Part shown: in pieces, positions 2,979 through 44,216 of the stretch
Layout: every line of letters starts with the position of its first letter
Numbering within the stretch: position 1 is the stretch's first letter
From: a virus
Taxonomy: Duplodnaviria; Caudoviricetes
Length of the DNA stretch: 62,866 nucleotides
Virus record (IMG/VR): IMGVR_UViG_3300006030_000030
Coordinates: 1 to 62,866 of that record
Direction: 5' to 3' (one strand)
Translations under genes and position numbers: made by a program
Notes under the pieces: generated by a model
Database searches by the model: none
Told to the model about the DNA's origin: nothing
The model's input: the letters and a program-made list of their open reading frames with translations, nothing else

Positions 2979-3329
2979 ATGGCATTTGCAACAGGCAAGT
3001 TCTCCTTCGGCCTTTGTGACTACTGTGGCCAGCGCTACCCCTATCAAGTTCTGCGCAAGAACTGGCGTGGCTTCATGGTGTGTCCTGAAGACTACGAGCC
3101 GAAAGAGCCCCAGCTGGATCCCTTGAACTACCGCGGTGACGCGATAGCCCTAAGAGATCCCAGACCTGATAGAATTGAACCCGTGGTAGTGTACTTGGGA
3201 GTCCCTGCTGACTCTGCATTCCAGAGCATCGGCAGCGCCACCAATACCGTGAACATGAGGCCATTCCCGCAGCAGAATGCTGTTCTGGGAGTGGGTCAAG
3301 TAGGCCGTGTGACCATAGTGATAACCTGA
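2979..3329 (+). CDS. Conserved phage protein with CxxC motif
   Basis: CDYCGQRYP...CPEDYEPKEPQ; ATG at 2979 after GGGGTG. Confidence 0.7.
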   Translation: MAFATGKFSFGLCDYCGQRYPYQVLRKNWRGFMVCPEDYEPKEPQLDPLNYRGDAIALRDPRPDRIEPVVVYLGVPADSAFQSIGSATNTVNMRPFPQQNAVLGVGQVGRVTIVIT

Positions 3330-3985
3330 TGACATACGACGAGCTGGTTACAAATATTCGGAACTACACCGAGGTCGACAGCAACGTGTTCACCAACGCG
3401 GTGATCAACACGTTCATCACCATGGCCGAGAACCGGATCCTGCGGGACATTGATCTGGACGTGTTCAAAAAAGAATCCACGGGCACGATGACCAGTGGCA
3501 ACAAGTTCCTGAGCGCCCCGAGTGACATCTTGACTCATCGGTACATGATGATCACGAACTCTGGGGATCAGATATTCTTGGACTTCCGAGACACGTCGTT
3601 CATGAAGGAGTACTGGGCAGACGGCTCTGAGACAGGCGTGCCGAAGTACTACTCGGTCTGGGACCAGAATACCTTCTACGTGGCGCCGACGCCGAACAGC
3701 AATTACTCAGTGGAGCTGGGCTACATCTATCGGCCGGCGCAGCTGTCCTCGACCAATCCGACCACGTGGATCAGCAACAATGCTCCCGAGGCCCTCCTGT
3801 ATGCCTGCCTGATTCAGGCCTACAGCTACACGAAGGGCCCGACAGAGATGCTGAATTTCTTCACGGCAAGTTACCAGCAAGCGATTCAGGGTCTGGGTAT
3901 CGAGCAGCAGGGTCGCCGTCGCCGTGACGAGTACCGTGACGGCATGATTCGCCTGCCTGTAAAATCAGAATCACCGGGGCCATAA
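3329..3985 (+). CDS. Putative head-tail adaptor / tail tubular protein A-like
   Basis: 218 aa; GVPKYY..PTP..Y.VEL.Y and ALLYACL pattern typical of podovirus adaptors. Confidence 0.65.
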   Translation: MTYDELVTNIRNYTEVDSNVFTNAVINTFITMAENRILRDIDLDVFKKESTGTMTSGNKFLSAPSDILTHRYMMITNSGDQIFLDFRDTSFMKEYWADGSETGVPKYYSVWDQNTFYVAPTPNSNYSVELGYIYRPAQLSSTNPTTWISNNAPEALLYACLIQAYSYTKGPTEMLNFFTASYQQAIQGLGIEQQGRRRRDEYRDGMIRLPVKSESPGP

Positions 3986-4277: not shown

Positions 4278-4736
4278 ATGGCTATTACCGTCACTACCGC
4301 AATGCCCACCAGCTTCAAAGTTGAGTTGCTCAAGGGTTTGCACGACTTTACGGCGTCTACTGGCGATACATTTAAGATCGCTTTGCTGAAATCTGCTTCT
4401 GCAGGTAGCGGCACTTATGGCGCTGCGAGCACCAACTATTCCAACATCACCGGCAACAGCGACGAGGCCAGCGGCACCGGCTACACGGCTGGTGGTAACA
4501 CGCTTACCAACGTCACTCCGACTTCTGACGGCACCACTGCGATCACTGACTTTGCTGATACTACGTGGTCCAGCGCGTCGTTCACTACTTGTGGGGCGAT
4601 GATCTATAACACCAACAACTCAAACTCTGCGTGTGCGGTGTTGAGCTTTGGTGGAGATCAGACTGTGAGTTCCGGTGACTTCCAGATTCAGTTCCCTGCA
4701 GCAGCTGCAGCTACGGCGATCATTCGTATTGCGTGA
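4278..4736 (+). CDS. Putative tail structural protein
   Basis: 152 aa; TFKIAL..GTGYTAGG..L; GGAG RBS. Confidence 0.7.
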   Translation: MAITVTTAMPTSFKVELLKGLHDFTASTGDTFKIALLKSASAGSGTYGAASTNYSNITGNSDEASGTGYTAGGNTLTNVTPTSDGTTAITDFADTTWSSASFTTCGAMIYNTNNSNSACAVLSFGGDQTVSSGDFQIQFPAAAAATAIIRIA

Positions 4737-4744
4737 GGTAAGTT

Positions 4745-5413
4745 ATGGCGCTGGTTCTTAAAGACAGAGTAAAAGAGACCTCGACTACGGCGGGTACAGG
4801 CACGCTTACGCTGGCCGGAGCCGTAGCGGGGTATCAGTCTTTTTCCGTAATCGGCGACAGTAACACTACCTATTATGCAATTGTTGATGGGACGGCCAAT
4901 ACGTGGGAAATAGGTATTGGTACCTATACGGCTAGCGGTACGACCCTTTCTAGGGATACGGTCCTTGAGTCTAGTAGCGGTGGAAGTGCGGTTTCTTTTT
5001 CCTCTAACTCCAAAGATGTTTTTGTAACTTATCCGGCGGAACGCGCTGTCGCTACTGACGCCACGCAAACTCTTTCGGGTAAAACAATTACAAACCTAGT
5101 GTTTGACGGTAATTACACTGAAGACGTATTTACTATTTCTGACGGTGCTTCGGTTGATTTAAATCCAGCTAACGGAACTATCCAATTATGGACGTTGGGG
5201 GCAAACCGATCACCTACGGCATCTTCGTTTGCTTCTGGGCAATCCATGTCATTGATGATTGACGATGGTAGTGCGTACACCATTACATGGCCTAGCGTAA
5301 CTTGGAAGACAGACGGGGGAGTCGCCCCCACTTTACAAACTACAGGGTATACGATAGTCCAACTTTGGAAAGTAAGCACCACGCTTTACGGCGCTAGGGT
5401 CGGTGATGCGTAA
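4745..5413 (+). CDS. Tail fibre N-terminal/anchor-like protein
   Basis: LKDRVKETSTTAGTG..WEIGIGTY..LSRDTV head motif of tail appendage proteins. Confidence 0.65.
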   Translation: MALVLKDRVKETSTTAGTGTLTLAGAVAGYQSFSVIGDSNTTYYAIVDGTANTWEIGIGTYTASGTTLSRDTVLESSSGGSAVSFSSNSKDVFVTYPAERAVATDATQTLSGKTITNLVFDGNYTEDVFTISDGASVDLNPANGTIQLWTLGANRSPTASSFASGQSMSLMIDDGSAYTITWPSVTWKTDGGVAPTLQTTGYTIVQLWKVSTTLYGARVGDA

Positions 5414-6984
5414 TGCTTACCGGGAAACTACTTAGCGTTACGCAGCAGCCAGCTACTTGGAGTTTAGCTTCCTACTCAGATTTATATGTACAGCAGTTTT
5501 CTGTTACTTCGCAAGAGGGTATTCCCCAAGGGTTATTTTTTAAGCCTGACGGTACAAAAATGTACATAGTAGGAAGTGGGGGGGACGAAGTTAATGAGTA
5601 CACTCTTTCTTCTGCGTGGGATATACAGACAGCTAGTTTCGTTCAATTATTTTCAGTAGCTTCACAAGATACTATTCCGCAAGGATTGTTTTTTACATCC
5701 GATGGGTTGGGTATGTATGTGGTCGGGCAAACTAACGACAATGTGTACCAGTATTCTCTAGGTACCGCATGGAATATAAGTACTGCAAGTTATGTAAGAA
5801 GTTTTTCTGTAGCAACACAAGACACTACCCCGACTGACGTTTTCTTCAAACCCGACGGTACAAAGATGTATGTTTTGGGGAACTCAGGGAACGACGTTAA
5901 TGAGTACACATTATCTACCGCATGGGATATAAGCACAGCTAGTTACGTGCAAGTGTTTTCGGTATCTGCGCAAGATACCAATCCGGAGGGGTTGTTTTTT
6001 ACTTCTGATGGGCTAGGGATGTATGTAGTTGGTTCGATTAACCTTAGTGTGTATCAGTACTCTCTGGGTACCGCATGGAATATAAGTACGGCCAGTTATA
6101 TCAGGACTCTTTCTATAGCTTCAGCTGAAGGGTCGCCTAGCGGACTTTCGTTTTCTACTGACGGTACTCAGTTATATGTAGTGGGAACTGAGTTTGATAC
6201 CGTATCTAGGTTTTTGCTTACCACTGCGTGGAACATAGGTTCAGCCAAAGTTCCTACCTCAATGTCTACTGGTTCGCAGTCCAGTGGGGGGCGAGCAATT
6301 TCGTTCAAGCCAGATGGAACAGTTTTGTATCGCGTGGCAACCAGCAATGACGCAGTGTACGAATACAGCCTATCAACACCGTGGGATATAACTACGTCTA
6401 CCTATGTACGTAGTGTTTCTGTGGCTTCACAGGATACTGTCCCCACCGGGTTGTTTTTCAAGCCGGACGGACTAAAGATGTACATGGTGGGGCAAACAAA
6501 TGACACTGTACGGGAATACACATTAGCTACTGCATGGGATGTAAGCACTGCTACGTACAGCCAAGGTTTTTCTGTGGCAACACAAGAGGGCGCACCAACT
6601 GCGCTTCAGTTCAAAGCTGACGGCACAAAAATGTACGTTATGGGTTCTGTAGGAGATAATGTCAACGAATATAATCTCTCTACGGCGTGGGACATAAGTA
6701 CAGCCAGTTATGTGCAAGTGTTTTCAGTGGCAACTCAGGAAACACTCCCGACTTCGCTGTTTTTTAAACCGGACGGCACCGTGATGTACGTTGGGGGGGG
6801 TACGCTTAAACTGTATCAATACGGACTCGCCACACCGTGGGATGTTAGTACAGCAAGTTATTCGGGTCAGAGTTTTGCGTTTGAGCCTTCTGGTCCTGCT
6901 TCAGCAGCGGGGATTGCGTTTAATGACATAGGGTCTAGGCTGTTTATAGCTGCGGCCACGTTGGTGTATCAATTTTCGCTGTAA
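5413..6984 (+). CDS. Beta-propeller repeat protein, putative receptor-binding tail protein
   Basis: About ten repeats of (F)KPDGTKMY..G...V.EY.L.TAWDISTAS. Confidence 0.75.
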   Translation: MLTGKLLSVTQQPATWSLASYSDLYVQQFSVTSQEGIPQGLFFKPDGTKMYIVGSGGDEVNEYTLSSAWDIQTASFVQLFSVASQDTIPQGLFFTSDGLGMYVVGQTNDNVYQYSLGTAWNISTASYVRSFSVATQDTTPTDVFFKPDGTKMYVLGNSGNDVNEYTLSTAWDISTASYVQVFSVSAQDTNPEGLFFTSDGLGMYVVGSINLSVYQYSLGTAWNISTASYIRTLSIASAEGSPSGLSFSTDGTQLYVVGTEFDTVSRFLLTTAWNIGSAKVPTSMSTGSQSSGGRAISFKPDGTVLYRVATSNDAVYEYSLSTPWDITTSTYVRSVSVASQDTVPTGLFFKPDGLKMYMVGQTNDTVREYTLATAWDVSTATYSQGFSVATQEGAPTALQFKADGTKMYVMGSVGDNVNEYNLSTAWDISTASYVQVFSVATQETLPTSLFFKPDGTVMYVGGGTLKLYQYGLATPWDVSTASYSGQSFAFEPSGPASAAGIAFNDIGSRLFIAAATLVYQFSL

Positions 6985-6995
6985 GGGTTTTTATT

Positions 6996-7433
6996 ATGTA
7001 CGCAAAGCTATTGGCAGATGGGTCTATCAAAGCTCCTTACTACTTAGTTGATCTACAACGAGATTACCCCCACACTTCGTTCCCTTCGACTATTACCCAA
7101 GCCGTGCTAGATGAGTTTGGTGTAGCGGTAGTTTCAGAAACGCCGCCTCCCGAAGTAGATTTGGCAACAAGTCGGGCAACGTATACTGTAGTTCGTAACG
7201 AAGGTAAGTACCAACAGGTATGGGAGGTAACACACCTACCAGTGGAAACTGCCTCTCAGAATGTAAGAGAGCGGCGCGACGATAAATTACGAGCATCAGA
7301 CTGGACGCAGATACCGGACGCTACCGTCAATCAAACTTCTTGGGCTTCGTATAGGCAGGCGTTGAGAGATGTTCCCCAGCAAGCGGGATTTCCTTTTTCT
7401 GTAGTGTGGCCCAACCCCCCAACAGGACTTTAA
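6996..7433 (+). CDS. Tail fibre assembly chaperone
   Basis: C-terminal R..L.ASDWTQ.PD..W..YRQALRDVPQQ.GFP..V.WP motif. Confidence 0.8.
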   Translation: MYAKLLADGSIKAPYYLVDLQRDYPHTSFPSTITQAVLDEFGVAVVSETPPPEVDLATSRATYTVVRNEGKYQQVWEVTHLPVETASQNVRERRDDKLRASDWTQIPDATVNQTSWASYRQALRDVPQQAGFPFSVVWPNPPTGL

Positions 7434-40446: not shown

Positions 40447-40611
40447 AGAAGACAAGAAGCTGTTGGCAGGCAAGAGCGCCAGTTACATCATCGGCTGGAA
40501 CAAGGTCAAACACAGAGGAGACAAGCATGACACTGCAAGAAATACTGAATCCGTGGAAGGCACTGCGCCGCGCAAAGCTCGAAATCGAAACCCTGCGAAG
40601 GGAGAGGGGAT

Positions 40612-41988
40612 ATGAGATACGGTAGTGTTTGTAGTGGCATTGAGGCAGCAAGTGTGGCGTGGCACCCGCTTGGGTGGGAGGCCGCGTGGCTGGCTGAAAT
40701 TGAACCGTTTCCCTCAGCGGTATTAGGTCATCATTATCCAAGCGTACCCAACTACGGAGACATGACCGCCTTGGCTGACAGAGTCAATAATCTGGAGATT
40801 GAAGCTCCGGATGTGCTGGTCGGCGGTACGCCATGCCAAGCGTTTTCCGTCGCTGGGCTGCGTCAGTCACTGGATGACGATAGGGGACAACTAACAATCA
40901 AGTTTTTGGAGCTTGCTGATGCAATTGACACTGTTCGCAGAAATAGAGGAGAGCCAGAGTGCATTATCGTCTGGGAAAACGTACCCGGCGTCCTATCCAC
41001 AAAAGACAACGCCCTCGGATGCTTTTTGGCAGAGCTTGCCGGAGAAAGTGAGCCGCTGCAGCCGGCAGGGAAAAGATGGTCGGACGCTGGTTGTGTGTAT
41101 GGATCCAAAAGGGCAATCGCGTGGCGAGTCCTCGATGCCCAATATTTCGGCTTGGCCCAACGACGCCGCCGCGTGTTCGTTGTCGCAAGTGCTCGAAACG
41201 GGTTCGATCCCGCAGCGGTTCTTTTTGAGTTCGAAGGCGTGCGCCGGGATACTGCGCCGAGCAGGGAATCGGGGAAAGCAGTTGCCCCCACAATTGCAGG
41301 ATGCGCTAACGGCGGTGGCCTTGGCACCGACTTCGACTGCGATGGGGGAGTGATTCAGCAGTCGATTACTTTTGAGCCGGGATTATTAAAAAGGGAAGGG
41401 ACTCATTTTTATCATGAGCACACGGGGACGATAAGAAGCGATCCCGGTGACAACGCAATGGCCGTTGCATCGGTGGTCTTCCACGAGTCACTGCAAAGCG
41501 CCAGCACAGAAAACCTGTCGCCAGCCTTGGGCGCGATGAATCCAACGGCGGTGTTGCAGCCTGTCTGCGTTACCGGCGACCGCACCCACGCGCTCAAAGC
41601 TGAAGGCTTCGACGGCAGCGAGGACGGCACTGGCAGAGGCCATCCCATCATTGCTTTCCCCGCAAACCTGTCAGCCACACAACACGCCAGCGCCGAAAAC
41701 ATTGCGCCAGCGATGGGGGCGAAGAATCCGACGGCGGTGGCAATGCAGGCTGGGAAGCAGCACGGTGTCGGTACCGCCATGCAAGTCCGCCGCCTCACGC
41801 CCGTGGAGTGCGAACGCCTGCAAGGCTTCCCCGACAACTACACCGCCATCCCGTGGCGCAAGAAACCCGCAGACGAATGCTCGGACGGCTCGCGATACAA
41901 GGCGTTGGGAAATTCAATGGCCGTTCCGGTGATGGCGTGGATTGGCAGTCGTATTGATCAAGAAACCAGACTGCGAGAGACGAAATGA
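40612..41988 (+). CDS. C5-cytosine DNA methyltransferase
   Basis: Motif I SVCSGIE, IV GGTPCQ, VI ENVPG, VIII QRRRRVF, IX RRLTPVECERLQGF, X LGNS. Confidence 0.95.
   Translation: MRYGSVCSGIEAASVAWHPLGWEAAWLAEIEPFPSAVLGHHYPSVPNYGDMTALADRVNNLEIEAPDVLVGGTPCQAFSVAGLRQSLDDDRGQLTIKFLELADAIDTVRRNRGEPECIIVWENVPGVLSTKDNALGCFLAELAGESEPLQPAGKRWSDAGCVYGSKRAIAWRVLDAQYFGLAQRRRRVFVVASARNGFDPAAVLFEFEGVRRDTAPSRESGKAVAPTIAGCANGGGLGTDFDCDGGVIQQSITFEPGLLKREGTHFYHEHTGTIRSDPGDNAMAVASVVFHESLQSASTENLSPALGAMNPTAVLQPVCVTGDRTHALKAEGFDGSEDGTGRGHPIIAFPANLSATQHASAENIAPAMGAKNPTAVAMQAGKQHGVGTAMQVRRLTPVECERLQGFPDNYTAIPWRKKPADECSDGSRYKALGNSMAVPVMAWIGSRIDQETRLRETK
40913..41353 (+). CDS. Overprinted alternative-frame ORF resembling the M.EcoHK31I beta polypeptide
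   Basis: 146 aa inside the MTase; CSLSQVLET..FLS..GILRRA..RGKQLP..L..AL. Similarity from recall; start uncertain. Confidence 0.55.
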   Translation: MLMQLTLFAEIEESQSALSSGKTYPASYPQKTTPSDAFWQSLPEKVSRCSRQGKDGRTLVVCMDPKGQSRGESSMPNISAWPNDAAACSLSQVLETGSIPQRFFLSSKACAGILRRAGNRGKQLPPQLQDALTAVALAPTSTAMGE

Positions 41989-42113
41989 AAAAACGCATTC
42001 ACGTCAATCAACATCACATCCGCGCCAATGCCAAGGGCGCCCAGCTGCCCGTGCTCACGGTCAAGACCTACAAGGGCAACACCCTGTGCAATAGTGTCGA
42101 GGTCCGCGGCCCG
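41985..42113 (+). pseudogene. 5' half of a small phage gene split by an insertion
   Basis: MKKRIHVNQH.IRAN..PVLTVKTYKGN..VEVRGP; read-through stops at 42134 inside the insert. Confidence 0.7.
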
Positions 42114-42135
42114 ACGCAGATAATGCGCACATGAT

Positions 42136-42161
42136 GACAATGAATCTACAGACTATGAGTA
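42136..42161 (-). promoter_or_regulatory. C-protein operator (paired C-boxes) of a PvuII-type R-M system
   Basis: Minus strand TACTCATAGTC-TGTA-GATTCATTGTC fits the GACTnnnAGTC-TGTA-GACTnnnAGTC architecture. Confidence 0.7.
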
Positions 42162-42168
42162 GCAGCCC

Positions 42169-43245
42169 ATGTTGATGAAAGTAAAAACCGCGCCCGCTTA
42201 TTACACCGCCAAGGGTGGTGCATACATAGGGGACTCGATAGAGCTTCTAAGTGAGCTGCCAGATGAAAGTGTCAATCTGGTTATCACAAGCCCACCGTTT
42301 GCTCTGCAGCGCCAGAAGGAGTATGGCAACCTGGATCAACATGCATATATCGATTGGTTTGTAGAATTTGCCCGAATTGTTCATAGAAAACTCCGAAAAG
42401 ATGGGAGCTTCGTTGTCGATTTCGGGGGCGCTTATATGAAAGGTGTCCCGGTGCGTAGTCTCTATAACTTTCGTGTGCTAATTCGATTGGTTGATGAGCT
42501 GGGGTATTTTCTTGCTGAAGATTTTTATTGGTTCAATCCTTCTAAGCTACCTAGTCCGATTGAGTGGGTGAATAAGAGAAAGCTTCGAGTAAAGGATTCA
42601 ATTAATACGGTGTGGTGGTTCAGCAAAACCGAATGGCCGAAATCTGACATCACTAAAGTGCTCGCACCATATAGTGAACGAATGAAGAAGCTAATCGAAG
42701 ACCCTGATAAATTCTATACGCCAAAAGTTCGTCCATCAGGGCACGATATTGGCAAAGGATTCGCCAAAGATAATGGTGGAGCTATTCCCCCAAACTTACT
42801 TCAAATATCAAATTCCGAATCCAACGGACTATATCTTTCCGGATGTAAGGCAGTAGGAGTAAAAGGACATCCAGCCAGATTTCCCGCAAAGCTTCCTGAG
42901 TTTTTTATACGAATGTTGACTGAGCCAAATGATCTTGTTGTAGACATTTTTGGTGGCTCCAATACTACGGGGCAAGTAGCAGAACAAGAAGGTCGCCGAT
43001 GGATGTCTTTCGAAATGTCGCCCGAATATGTGGCAGCTTCGTCCTTTCGACTTTTGGATAAAAATACCCCTGTCGACGTAATGACTTTTATTTACGAAAA
43101 AGTTCTCGCCGGTGAATCGATTAATATCGATGAGTTCGTTCGCCAGTCACGTCTAGATTTGCGCGAGGAATCTGCTCCTAACAAACCAAGCAACTTCGTG
43201 CGCAAAAAGCGCGCACCGGACGCGGCAAGCCGCGCCGGTTCTTAG
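42169..43245 (+). CDS. Beta-class N4-cytosine DNA methyltransferase, M.PvuII-like (predicted site CAGCTG)
   Basis: TSPPF catalytic motif, HPARFP, DIFGGSNTT; long stretches match M.PvuII as I recall it; C-terminus reads into the attC. Confidence 0.88.
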   Translation: MLMKVKTAPAYYTAKGGAYIGDSIELLSELPDESVNLVITSPPFALQRQKEYGNLDQHAYIDWFVEFARIVHRKLRKDGSFVVDFGGAYMKGVPVRSLYNFRVLIRLVDELGYFLAEDFYWFNPSKLPSPIEWVNKRKLRVKDSINTVWWFSKTEWPKSDITKVLAPYSERMKKLIEDPDKFYTPKVRPSGHDIGKGFAKDNGGAIPPNLLQISNSESNGLYLSGCKAVGVKGHPARFPAKLPEFFIRMLTEPNDLVVDIFGGSNTTGQVAEQEGRRWMSFEMSPEYVAASSFRLLDKNTPVDVMTFIYEKVLAGESINIDEFVRQSRLDLREESAPNKPSNFVRKKRAPDAASRAGS

Positions 43246-43256
43246 GGGCGTTACGT
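43176..43256 (+). other. Integron attC recombination site
   Basis: R'' TCCTAAC, L'' AAG(C)AAC pairing with L' GTTCTT, inner CGG(A)CGCGGC/GCCGCGCCG stem, R' GTTACGT; both extrahelical bases present. Confidence 0.8.
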
Positions 43257-43328
43257 GCACGAGCACTTTCCGAACCAAGAGCCAGCGGCAGGCATGAACC
43301 CTATGAAATTGGCCCGATTGATTGCAAT

Positions 43329-43418
43329 TGCAAGGTGGTCTACCGACCTGACAATCCGTTGTCATGTGGTGCCAAGGTCTGGATCGAGACAGAGGCTGAA
43401 GTGGTGACAGGAGACTGA
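43329..43418 (+). pseudogene. 3' half of the split phage gene
   Basis: CKVVYRPDNPLSCGAKVWIETEAEVVTGD*, the expected continuation of the 41985 ORF family. Confidence 0.7.
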
Positions 43419-43534
43419 CTTACCTCCTGTTCATAGCAGTTGTCACATGGCCTCTGACTGCTTGGTTGTACATACATGGCCGATTTTAAACACGCAAAAA
43501 CATTTACAAGAACACCCAAGAAAGGAGATTCAAG

Positions 43535-43837
43535 ATGACGAAAGACGAGGAGATGGAGAAATTAACGAAACTAACCGGCTTGGACTTCGAGGCCCTCGAC
43601 AAGGAGTACGACCAACTGCAAAAGCTGGTTCTGCAGTTTGACCCCACCCGCGTCATGATGCTGCTGTCCACCTGCCTGATTCACCACAGCCGGTGCCGAG
43701 GAATCGACCCCGGCACGCTGCTCGGGGCTCTGTGCGAGATATGGAATATCACCCGCGACGAGGAGACAGAGGGGTTTATCGGGGTGGCCAAAGCCAAGGC
43801 AGCCGCAGTGATGGACACGGACGGGAAGCTTCATTGA
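43535..43837 (+). CDS. Hypothetical protein
   Basis: 100 aa, AAAGGAG RBS. Confidence 0.7.
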   Translation: MTKDEEMEKLTKLTGLDFEALDKEYDQLQKLVLQFDPTRVMMLLSTCLIHHSRCRGIDPGTLLGALCEIWNITRDEETEGFIGVAKAKAAAVMDTDGKLH

Positions 43838-43969
43838 GAGGCGGGGGCAAGGGATGCCGTTTAAGGCTCCTGTGGTGAGATTTGGGACGTTTTAGGGGGT
43901 AGGGGGAAGGAGAGCGTTTTGAGAGGGGCGAGAGAGCAGGGGTCGCGGGTCGAGGATCGGGGGGAAAGA

Positions 43970-44032
43970 TCGAGGTTCGAGGTTCGCGGCTCGAGGTTCG
44001 CGGCTCGAGGTTCGCGGCTCGAGGATCGCGGG
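43970..44032 (+). repeat. Non-coding tandem repeat, 14-bp unit with 7-bp sub-period
   Basis: TCGAGGTTCGCGGC x3 exact (43977-44018) plus degenerate flanks. Confidence 0.9.
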
Positions 44033-44216
44033 TTGGGGGTCAAGGGGAGAGGGGAAAGGACCGCGGCCCGGGGCTCCAGAGGGGCAAAAAGGCAGTTGCC
44101 CTACGGATTGTTACGTTTCTGTTTGCTATAGGGAGAAAAAAGCTTGTTTTATGAAAGTGATGAATATGAGTGAAAATTGGTGTGTGTGGTGTAATGAGTG
44201 GTGTTTTGTGTAGATG

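What the first reader, a model, noticed from the sequence alone, without database searches (positions are those of the whole stretch)
41985..43418. Integron-borne PvuII-type methyltransferase captured by the phage, with attC kept and the restriction gene absent
Seen: a small phage gene is split into 41985-42113 and 43329-43418 by about 1.2 kb of more AT-rich DNA. The insert holds an M.PvuII-like MTase whose C-terminus runs into a well-formed attC (43176-43256), followed by what looks like the first ~70 bp of the next cassette (MNPMKLARLIAIA..). GGCCCGA occurs near both junctions (42108, 43311). CAGCTG sites are present in the genome (e.g. 321, 3111, 42042). Inference: the phage took a slice of a host integron defence array by illegitimate recombination rather than IntI insertion, turning an R-M cassette into anti-restriction protection. 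The attC might also accept further cassettes via host IntI.
Basis: partly seen in the sequence, partly recalled or inferred. Interest (0 to 1): 0.88.

Follow-up and report, generated by a model that had tools for sequence, protein, structure and literature searches.

The report
Phage-captured slice of integron PvuII cassette
A freshwater phage carries, wedged inside one of its own small genes, a 1.2-kb piece of a bacterial integron defence cassette that keeps only the protective PvuII-type DNA methyltransferase; it is a clean example of a phage stealing the antidote to a host restriction enzyme, but similar cases are already in print.

Summary
41985-42113 and 43329-43418 are the two halves of one small phage gene (phrog_8676). 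Four of four translated intact homologs run straight across the break.

The 1215-bp insert (about 42115-43329) consists of:
- the PvuII C-box operator;
- a full M.PvuII-type N4-cytosine methyltransferase gene (E=1.5e-177 to PDB 1BOO);
- an attC-like site at exactly 43176-43256;
- the first 74 bp of another gene.

No R or C gene and no integron integrase occur in the 62.9-kb phage, which has 43 CAGCTG sites.

An attC covariance model built here from 71 attC sites outside PvuII cassettes scores the site 20.0 bits (E=0.012). That is the best hit in the window, but well below typical attCs (28-67 bits). In the closest bacterial relatives, the R-C-M unit is an integron cassette bounded by attCs.

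Contigs from three other runs bridge the junctions. A fourth run holds the insert at 100% identity with different flanks, which is probably the donor context.

Neither breakpoint is at the attC crossover, so capture was by illegitimate recombination.

Qi et al. 2023 already describe integron fragments and methyltransferase cassettes in phages. This scan has also noted phage integron-like methyltransferase arrays on other DNA. I class this as a new member of a known kind.

The parts
41985..42113 (+). N-terminal 43 codons of the split small phage gene (phrog_8676 family). Its ATG overlaps the stop of the upstream C5 methyltransferase gene (ATGA). The open frame runs on for 6 foreign codons to the stop at 42134.
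   Evidence: The intact homologs match phrog_8676.
42115..43329 (+). Foreign insert, 1215 bp. Each breakpoint is uncertain by 1 nt: A42114 and G43330 fit both the phage and the donor.
   Evidence: Homology to PvuII-type loci starts at 42115-42119. X17 contigs match from 42114 to 43330 and then diverge. Intact homologs have no extra codons. GC 0.44 against 0.56 for the phage.
42136..42161 (-). Orphan C-box operator (OL-TGTA-OR) of the lost pvuIIC-pvuIIR-type operon. It matches 23 of 26 positions of the wild-type PvuII boxes as described in PMC2175313.
   Evidence: Sequence. In the 7-sequence alignment with PvuII-type loci, including Proteus hauseri, all but one column of this block is invariant. 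Passages of PMC2175313.
42169..43245 (+). M.PvuII-type N4-cytosine DNA methyltransferase, 358 aa. The last 24 residues are encoded by the attC, because the frame misses the TAA that ends the gene inside R'' in relatives.
43176..43256 (+). attC-like recombination site, 81 bp. R'' is TCCTAAC and R' is GTTACGT. The L''/L' stem has a bulged C on the top strand (extrahelical G on the bottom strand). The variable region forms two hairpins.
   Evidence: R2: 20.0 bits, E=0.012, best hit in the window. R1: 10.0 bits, E=4.5. The bottom-strand MFE fold pairs the R and L boxes.
43257..43330 (+). First 74 bp of the neighbouring donor cassette: a 37-bp leader, then an ATG at 43294 that opens an ORF (12 codons kept).
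   Evidence: In run X17 the same frame continues without a stop through the 30 loose letters shown, beyond 43330.
43331..43418 (+). C-terminal part of the split phage gene. In frame it reads from codon TGC at 43329, whose first one or two bases come from the insert.
40612..41988 (+). Context: phage C5-cytosine methyltransferase gene directly upstream, in the same orientation.
   Evidence: PF00145, E=4.7e-36.

Best explanation
A roughly 63-kb freshwater phage acquired, by illegitimate (non-homologous, not IntI-mediated) recombination, a 1215-bp slice of a bacterial integron cassette array. The slice runs from about the start codon of the controller gene C of a PvuII-type R-C-M cassette. It continues through the C-box operator, the whole methyltransferase gene and the cassette's attC, and ends 74 bp into the next cassette. 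It landed in the middle of a small phage gene of unknown function (phrog_8676) and split it.

The restriction and controller genes were left behind. The phage therefore holds an orphan M.PvuII-type N4-cytosine methyltransferase, lying in the same orientation as the surrounding phage genes and probably transcribed with them.

Inferred function: the enzyme methylates the phage's 43 CAGCTG sites and so protects it from PvuII-type restriction enzymes, such as the one in the donor cassette.

Shown: the split gene, the identity of the parts, the absence of R, C and IntI, the junctions in independent assemblies, and the integron context of the closest relatives. Inferred: the direction of transfer, enzyme activity and specificity, expression, and any activity of the attC.
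For: (1) Split gene. The halves abut in other phages, and 4 of 4 intact homologs are colinear across the break.

(2) Methyltransferase. M.PvuII family membership: PF01555 and 1BOO at E=1.5e-177 with the SPPF and FGG motifs aligned. It is 88% identical to the M of loci L014-L016.

(3) Relatives carry the whole system. They have a divergent C (HTH_3) and R (PF09225, Endonuc-PvuII). Nucleotide homology to them begins at 42115-42119, right after their C start codon. The 26-bp C-box operator is kept.

(4) No R, C or integron integrase in the window.

(5) Integron context. In L014 the unit is attC 3327-3384 | R (split by an IS) | C | M | attC 7018-7075. Neither attC was a seed of the models that scored it (38.8 and 45.1 bits with R1; 31.7 and 50.3 bits with R2). 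Two more attCs and defence-type cassettes lie upstream, and a truncated integrase N-terminal domain lies further upstream. Downstream attC hits also follow M in L016, L066, L219, L253 and L220.

(6) Window attC. With model R2, 43176-43256 is the only hit at default filters. There were 0 hits at E<=10 in 626,581 bases of 83 other phage loci. The M stop codon of relatives lies inside the same R'' context GCTCCTAAC.

(7) Junctions. The left junction is bridged by contigs in X8, X14 and X15, and the right junction in X14 (3 of 4 and 1 of 4 runs laid). The stretch is held by 20 runs of 16 studies.

(8) Donor-type context. X17 contigs match 42114-42310, 42882-43061 and 43038-43330 with no differences and then run on into other sequence. 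Beyond 43330 that sequence keeps the 43294 ORF open with hydrophobic, signal-peptide-like codons.

(9) The phage has 43 CAGCTG sites, which is not a depleted count.
Against: - The attC call is weak. R1 (14 seeds) gave only 10.0 bits, E=4.5, third in the window. R2's 20 bits is below the 28-67 bits of the attCs it was built from, and E-values from these briefly calibrated models are rough.
- Folding energies are not unusual: z = -1.83, -0.86 and -1.32.
- My crude box scanner finds 5 such sites in the window against a mean of 1.8 in shuffles, so box matches alone mean little.
- R' (GTTACGT) and R'' (TCCTAAC) each miss the consensus at one position, and the second extrahelical base of canonical attCs is not evident.
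- Only one attC is present.
- Beyond R'' the site does not resemble the attC that follows M in relatives.
- No near-identical donor was found in the genome, metagenome or viral collections. The best nucleotide identity is about 75%.
- The left flank of the X17 contig (21 letters) was not shown to me, so C and R in the donor are not demonstrated.
- Most PvuII-type loci examined have no attC after M: 3 post-M hits among 89 loci and 3 among 80.
Confidence: 0.8

Rival explanations
1. The insert came from an ordinary PvuII-type R-M locus outside any integron. On this reading, 43176-43256 is a chance attC look-alike made of GC-rich hairpins, and the following 74 bp is simply the donor's next gene.
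For: The model scores are weak (10.0 bits with R1; 20.0 bits with R2). Folding z-scores are unremarkable. Most PvuII-type loci have no attC after M. The crude box scan gives false positives.
Against: The hit is the best in 62.9 kb on both strands. It sits in the right orientation exactly where the homology to M ends. It shares the GCTCCTAAC R'' context with the attC of integron-borne relatives. There were 0 hits in 626 kb of control phage DNA. The closest clade of relatives is integron-borne.
Confidence: 0.12
2. The 1.2-kb segment is itself a discrete mobile unit that inserts at many places. On this reading, the X17 context is another recipient, not the donor.
For: In X17 the identity ends at the same two positions as in the phage (42114 and 43330).
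Against: Donor and recipient must share exactly these ends in any case. The segment has no recombinase, no terminal repeats and no target duplication. Its left end cuts a regulatory unit at the C start codon. Its right end cuts an ORF that stays open and hydrophobic in X17 but not in the phage.
Confidence: 0.05
3. The integron integrase inserted a circular cassette at a secondary site in the phage.
For: An attC-like site is present, and IntI can use secondary sites (established knowledge, recalled).
Against: An IntI product would begin with the last six bases of an R' box and end at the G of R'. Here the left end lies in the C-M intergenic region, and the right end lies 74-80 bp past the crossover point G43250|T43251.
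Confidence: 0.02
4. The insertion was transposition-like, with a 7-bp target duplication GGCCCGA. On this reading, 43318-43328 would be phage sequence.
For: GGCCCGA stands at 42108 and 43311 in the same codon phase, and removing one copy plus the interval leaves an open frame.
Against: That frame would add four residues that 4 of 4 intact homologs lack. X17 matches without a difference through 43311-43330 although it lacks the phage flank beyond, so these bases belong to the donor. There is no transposase and there are no terminal inverted repeats.
Confidence: 0.02
5. The junctions are an assembly chimera.
For: The record is a single metagenome assembly.
Against: Contigs assembled separately from other runs bridge the left junction in X8, X14 and X15 and the right junction in X14, with no differences. 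The exact 358-aa protein is on 14 contigs, the longest 64,130 bases.
Confidence: 0.01

Closest known systems
Integron fragments and attC clusters (CALINs) in phage genomes: Qi, Rajabal, Ghaly, Tetu and Gillings 2023, Front Microbiol, PMC9892861. I read the abstract, section 3.1 and passages; I could not see the supplements.
   Same: Phages carry pieces of bacterial integron arrays with attC sites. Five phage-borne cassettes encode DNA methyltransferases, including N6_N4_Mtase. The authors propose protection from host restriction and mention illegitimate recombination as one route.
   Different: Here there is a single, weak attC, so the usual two-attC criterion for a CALIN (recalled) is not met. 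The captured piece is the M side of a complete R-C-M cassette and still carries its C-box operator. It interrupts a conserved phage gene at a defined codon. A donor-type context is visible in a sequencing run. Whether a PvuII-type M is among their five cases may be in their Table S4, which I could not see.
PvuII restriction-modification system (pvuIIM divergent from pvuIIC-pvuIIR, C-box operator): Mruk et al. 2007, PMC2175313. I read passages only.
   Same: The M protein aligns over residues 7-322 with M.PvuII. The 26-bp operator matches 23 of 26 positions of the wild-type boxes described in the paper. Relatives keep the same gene order.
   Different: C and R are absent from the phage. M carries a 24-residue tail encoded by the attC. 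The gene sits in a phage, not on a plasmid or chromosome.
PvuII-type R-C-M integron cassette of the gammaproteobacterial MAG locus L014, with relatives L015/L016 (Candidatus Competibacter) and L219.
   Same: M is 87-88% identical in protein. The intergenic operator is the same. An attC starts at the end of M with the same GCTCCTAAC context.
   Different: Nucleotide identity is only about 74%, and those M genes are 56% GC against 44% here. Their M ends at a TAA inside R''. Beyond R'' their attC differs from the window's.
Orphan DNA methyltransferases of phages (Murphy et al. 2013, known to me only as cited in PMC9892861).
   Same: A methyltransferase without its nuclease, taken from a bacterial R-M system and carried by a phage as anti-restriction.
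   Different: Here the capture event is still legible: both breakpoints, the leftover operator, the attC and a fragment of the neighbouring gene.

Membership tests
M.PvuII-type beta-class N4-cytosine DNA methyltransferase | N6_N4_Mtase domain over the whole catalytic core | tested here: met
   PF01555: E=2.2e-44, residues 35-290, profile positions 1-218 of 221.
M.PvuII-type beta-class N4-cytosine DNA methyltransferase | Near full-length colinearity with M.PvuII, including the SPPF catalytic motif and the FGG SAM-binding motif | tested here: met
   1BOO chain A: E=1.5e-177, query 7-322 aligned to chain 6-321. 'tsppfalq' and 'difggsnttg' are identical in both.
M.PvuII-type beta-class N4-cytosine DNA methyltransferase | Methylates the internal C of CAGCTG at N4 | not testable with these tools
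   Inferred from 75-88% identity to PvuII-type M proteins that sit next to PF09225 nucleases. It needs a methylation-sensitive assay.
Complete PvuII-type R-M system | PvuII-type endonuclease gene and controller (C) gene next to M | tested here: not met
   tblastn with the R and C proteins of L015 found no hit in the window at E<=1e-3, while the control loci in the same search hit.
Complete PvuII-type R-M system | C-box operator GACT-N3-AGTC-N4-GACT-N3-AGTC upstream of C | tested here: met
   Present on the minus strand at 42161-42136. All but one column of the block is invariant in the 7-sequence alignment. Consensus taken from PMC2175313.
Integron attC site | Match to a covariance model of attC sites (R''-L''...L'-R' with paired boxes) | tested here: met
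   R2 (71 sites): 20.0 bits, E=0.012, full model length, best hit in the window. R1 (14 sites) gave only 10.0 bits, E=4.5. The score is weak beside the 28-67 bits of typical sites. IntegronFinder's own model was not available.
Integron attC site | Inverse core RYYYAAC and core GTTRRRY | tested here: inconclusive
   TCCTAAC and GTTACGT each fit 6 of 7 positions. The AAC/GTT triplets are present. The consensus is recalled.
Integron attC site | Extrahelical bases on the folded bottom strand | tested here: inconclusive
   The bulged C91 on the top strand (G on the bottom strand) is at the model's bulge position in L''. The second bulge, seen at alignment column 23 of the seeds, has no clear counterpart.
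Integron attC site | Lies at the 3' end of a cassette ORF, in the same orientation | tested here: met
   R'' begins 6 bp after the last M codon shared with relatives.
Integron attC site | Recombined by an integron integrase | not testable with these tools
   It needs an attC x attI assay such as that of Qi et al. 2023.
Integron or CALIN within the phage | An integron integrase, or at least two attC sites | tested here: not met
   TIGR02249 gave 0 matches at E<=0.01. R2 finds one site only.
Phage orphan methyltransferase (anti-restriction) | A methyltransferase without a cognate nuclease, on a phage genome that carries its target sites | tested here: met
   Virus record with CheckV completeness 100. 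No R gene. 43 CAGCTG sites. Protection itself was not tested.

The most novel reading that the evidence does not exclude
The leftovers may be more than fossils.

(a) The retained attC may still be a substrate for host integron integrases. The phage could then trade cassettes with the defence arrays of its hosts, taking in further cassettes next to M or handing M back.

(b) The orphan C-box operator, amplified on replicating phage genomes, may titrate the host's C protein. That would perturb activation of the resident PvuII-type nuclease operon and add to the protection given by methylation.
Probability: 0.1. Interest if true: 0.7.

Novelty: new member of a known kind. Interest (0 to 1): 0.45.

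Why it matters
Integron arrays are now seen as stores of anti-phage defence genes. This locus shows the other side of that: a phage took the protective half of such a cassette and left the nuclease behind. The capture is unusually legible, with two exact breakpoints, an orphan operator, the cassette's attC and a stub of the next cassette.

It therefore serves as a worked example of how orphan methyltransferases arise in phages. It also shows that integron DNA can reach phages without the integron integrase.

The same junctions occur in runs dated 2017, 2019 and 2024, so a phage that lost its phrog_8676 gene to the insert persists in nature.

The general phenomenon is published (Qi et al. 2023), so the value lies in the detail and in the tests it allows, not in a new principle.

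Tried and rejected
- Near-identity search of 40600-44200 against phage records matched only the C5 methyltransferase part (3 records).
- The gene downstream of the insert has no relatives in IMG/VR.
- The 24-residue tail of M has no counterpart in 92 loci.
- Region 43171-43334 gave only chance-level hits in plasmids (3 records, E>=0.1).
- The exact 37-mer 43294-43330 was not found in metagenome contigs or viral contigs.
- Searching with the M protein in metagenomes gave 80 loci. The best was 91% identical over 270 residues (L251, cut by the contig end). None exceeded 75% nucleotide identity and none matched the part after 43170.
- Folding the 116-nt and 81-nt stretches gave no significant z-scores.
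- A hand-made box scanner was too unspecific: 5 hits in the window against a mean of 1.8 in 30 shuffles. I used it only to pick seed attCs.
- A MAFFT alignment of the post-M regions mis-registered the R'' boxes, so I did not use it.
- The promoter and terminator scan around the insert was at chance level.
- No contig among the pieces shown for the four laid runs skips the insert, that is, none shows an empty site. Contigs show presence, not absence.
- In X17 the phage flanks had no cover. I draw nothing from that alone. The argument rests on the loose end at 43330 and on the record that stops matching at 42114.
- Genomes G146 and G044 are marked unpublished.
- The supplements of PMC9892861 and PMC2175313 were not seen.


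Full report
WHAT THE WINDOW IS. The window is a whole IMG/VR virus record of 62,866 bases, rated 100% complete by CheckV. The insert occurs in it once. Genes around the finding all read on the + strand.

THE SPLIT GENE. ORF 41985-42134 starts with an ATG that overlaps the stop of the upstream C5 methyltransferase gene.
- Its first 43 codons (to 42113) hit 21 phage records by tblastn, 17 of 21 over at least 80% of the query.
- The 29 codons from 43329 hit 45 records at E<=10.
- Where both pieces hit one record they lie side by side. They abut directly in DSL-LC04 and DSS3_VP1 and lie one codon apart in HTVC111P.
- I translated four intact homologs: L001, L002, L003 and the IMG/VR contig L123, which is the closest at 72% and 70% identity to the two halves. 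All four read G-[P/K]-S-x-[V/I/L][V/I]-Y across the point where the window reads ..RGP, insert, CKVVY...
- The two flanks are therefore halves of one gene, with no codon lost or gained.
- The intact homologs belong to phrog_8676, of unknown function. Pfam has nothing for them.

THE INSERT: LEFT END AND METHYLTRANSFERASE.
- GC falls to 0.40-0.46 between 42200 and 43199. The M gene is 0.441 GC and the phage 0.561.
- ORF 42169-43245 (358 aa) is an N6_N4_Mtase. It aligns over residues 7-322 with the solved M.PvuII (1BOO, E=1.5e-177), with the SPPF and FGG motifs conserved.
- The exact protein is on 14 contigs; the next cluster is 88% identical.
- In genomes the closest relatives (87-88%) are a gammaproteobacterial MAG (L014) and two Candidatus Competibacter genomes (L015, L016).
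- In L015 a 78-aa HTH_3 protein and a 174-aa PF09225 (Endonuc-PvuII) protein lie divergently upstream of M. This is the PvuII gene order.
- Nucleotide homology of the window to these loci (about 74%) begins at 42115-42119 and ends at 43169.
- The seven-sequence alignment, which includes Proteus hauseri, shows an almost invariant block at 42119-42164. Homology stops just after the relatives' C start codon.
- On the minus strand, 42161-42136 reads as the two C-boxes with the TGTA spacer. It differs at 3 of 26 positions from the wild-type PvuII operator as described by Mruk et al. 2007 (passages of PMC2175313).
- tblastn with R and C of L015 finds nothing in the window.
- So the phage has the M side of a C-regulated PvuII-type system, cut at about the C start codon.

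THE INSERT: RIGHT END.
- After ..LDLREE (43169) the window has nothing in common with 92 relatives' loci.
- In L014, L015 and L016 the M gene ends ..YGS, with its TAA stop inside the sequence GGCTCCTAAC. The window has GCTCCTAAC fifteen bases closer to the shared ..REE codons, and there it is read in a frame in which TAA is not a codon. The ORF therefore runs on for 24 codons to TAG at 43243.

TESTING THE attC: FIRST MODEL.
- I collected 14 attC sites from cassette arrays next to integron integrases or in arrays (L183, L185, L186, L014, L016) and aligned them.
- The canonical pairing holds on that alignment: 88% of cells paired, and 0 of 500 shuffles reach the covariation score.
- I built model R1 from it.
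- R1 finds the window site at exactly 43176-43256 on the + strand, but at only 10.0 bits (E=4.5), third in the window.

TESTING THE attC: SECOND MODEL.
- R1 detects attCs at E<=1e-5 in 47 of 151 genomes of the same class.
- From 28 of the loci returned, plus three seed loci, it collected 71 sites scoring 28-67 bits. None is from a PvuII cassette, and the two unpublished genomes were left out. Some of the 71 are duplicates, because L189 overlaps L185.
- Model R2, built on these, scores the window site 20.0 bits, E=0.012. The next hit scores 10.1 bits.
- At default filters it is the only hit in the window.
- Under the same settings, 626,581 bases of 83 other phage loci give no hit at E<=10. The filters are laxer for smaller inputs, so this control is approximate.
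- The alignment puts the bulged C of L'' at the model's bulge position. The MFE fold of the isolated bottom strand pairs the R and L boxes around a two-hairpin variable region.

WHAT COUNTS AGAINST THE attC.
- The score is well below ordinary attCs.
- Folding z-scores are unremarkable.
- Each R box misses the consensus at one position.
- The calibration of my models is short.
I take the site as a real but atypical or decaying attC, with roughly 85% confidence.

COMPARATIVE SUPPORT FOR AN INTEGRON ORIGIN.
- In L014 the layout is attC 3327-3384, then R (residues 23-174 at 3837-3382 and residues 1-46 at 5711-5589, with a transposase-bearing element between them), then C at 5944-5711, M at 6001-7023 and attC at 7018-7075.
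- The two flanking attCs were not seeds of R2. They score 31.7 and 50.3 bits with R2 and 38.8 and 45.1 bits with R1.
- Upstream lie two more attCs and cassettes for a PIN protein, a YcxB-like protein and an AAA/OLD-TOPRIM protein.
- Beyond these is an ORF with only the N-terminal SAM-like domain of an integrase.
- Hits directly after M also occur in L016 (18.2 bits) and L066 (17.9 bits) among 89 loci, and in L219 (18.2), L253 (32.6) and L220 (20.8, partial) among 80 metagenome loci.
- Most PvuII-type loci have none. The integron association is therefore a property of the clade closest to the window's M, not of the family.

JUNCTIONS AND DONOR.
- The stretch 41800-43600 is held by 20 runs of 16 studies.
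- I laid four runs as contigs.
- The left junction is bridged without differences by X14 record 4 (41970-42174), X15 record 12 (42070-42270) and X8 record 27 (41971-42227).
- The right junction is bridged by X14 record 7 (43199-43507).
- The record is not a chimera. The insert-bearing phage was present in samples dated 2017, 2019 and 2024.
- X17 is different. Its contigs match 42114-42310, 42882-43061 and 43038-43330 with no differences.
- The 218-letter X17 record stops matching at 42114 with 21 letters to spare. The 378-letter record runs on for 85 letters beyond 43330 in sequence unlike the phage.
- By my hand translation, the 30 loose letters shown continue the ORF that starts at 43294 for ten more codons. 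These are hydrophobic, with no stop, as in a signal peptide. In the phage the same frame turns into unrelated residues.

HOW THE SLICE GOT IN.
- The X17 match fixes the breakpoints at A42114 or 42115 and at 43329 or G43330, with at most one shared base on each side.
- The second GGCCCGA (43311-43317) lies inside donor sequence and is not a target duplication.
- Neither end is at the attC crossover (G43250|T43251).
- The phage has no integron integrase.
- Capture was therefore illegitimate recombination, not IntI action.

FUNCTION. This part is inferred.
- The phage has 43 CAGCTG sites where 28.3 +/- 5.3 are expected, so it would be a good target for a PvuII-type nuclease.
- An intact M with all motifs, placed in the same orientation as a second methyltransferase gene just upstream, fits an anti-restriction role.
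- The native pvuIIM promoters face the pvuIICR promoters (PMC2175313). I could not tell whether they survive in the 55 bp kept upstream. The promoter scan was at chance level. I assume read-through from the phage genes.

COMPARISON WITH WHAT IS KNOWN.
- Qi et al. 2023 (PMC9892861; abstract, section 3.1 and passages) report integrons, fragments of chromosomal integrons and attC clusters in 21 phages. Five of the phage-borne cassettes encode methyltransferases. Their recombination assays show that some phage attCs work. They propose the same anti-restriction benefit.
- The scan's own index lists many phage integron-like methyltransferase arrays on other DNA. Those are arrays with other recombinases, and I did not check them.
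- This locus is therefore a new member of a known kind. What sets it apart is how much of the capture event can still be read.

Noticed in passing
L014:339-3384 and L182:3790-5085: The array that holds the PvuII cassette in the MAG also carries cassettes for an AAA/OLD-TOPRIM protein, a YcxB-like protein and a PIN toxin with a small partner. It sits downstream of an ORF that keeps only the N-terminal domain of an integrase. It looks like a defence-rich array with a decayed intI.
   Followed up: partly
L014:3838-5588; L018 near 4398-5496: In two relatives the PvuII-type R gene is split (in L014 by a transposase-bearing element) while C and M stay intact. This is a decay of the nuclease that parallels its loss in the phage.
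   Followed up: partly
L016:4582-5190 (likewise L015, L219): In the Competibacter loci a GNAT acetyltransferase gene ends only about 34 bp from the end of R, with no attC between them. An attC-like hit (23.1 bits) lies upstream of the GNAT gene. This may be two cassettes fused by loss of an attC.
   Followed up: no
window 1-62866: CAGCTG is over-represented in the phage: 43 sites against 28.3 +/- 5.3 expected, and 0 of 100 shuffles reach 43.
   Followed up: no
window 41985-42134: The truncated N-terminal fragment of the split gene keeps its translational coupling (ATGA overlap) to the C5 methyltransferase gene. A 49-residue remnant may therefore still be made.
   Followed up: no
window 41770-41863: Contigs of many other organisms pile up here in all four laid runs (depth 14-225 against about 2-7 elsewhere). 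This is the conserved C-terminal motif region of C5 methyltransferases, not a feature of this phage.
   Followed up: no
Pseudoalteromonas phage H101 (KR534323), 66814-67044: This phage has an intact homolog of the split phrog_8676 gene. It is also one of the virulent phages in which Qi et al. 2023 list a two-attC cluster. I did not check whether the two lie near each other.
   Followed up: no
window 42169-43170 against L014-L016: The M protein is 87-88% identical to relatives but the DNA only about 74%. GC is 44% against 56%. The gene has therefore spent a long time in a lower-GC lineage than any sampled relative, and that lineage also differs in GC from the 56% GC phage.
   Followed up: partly
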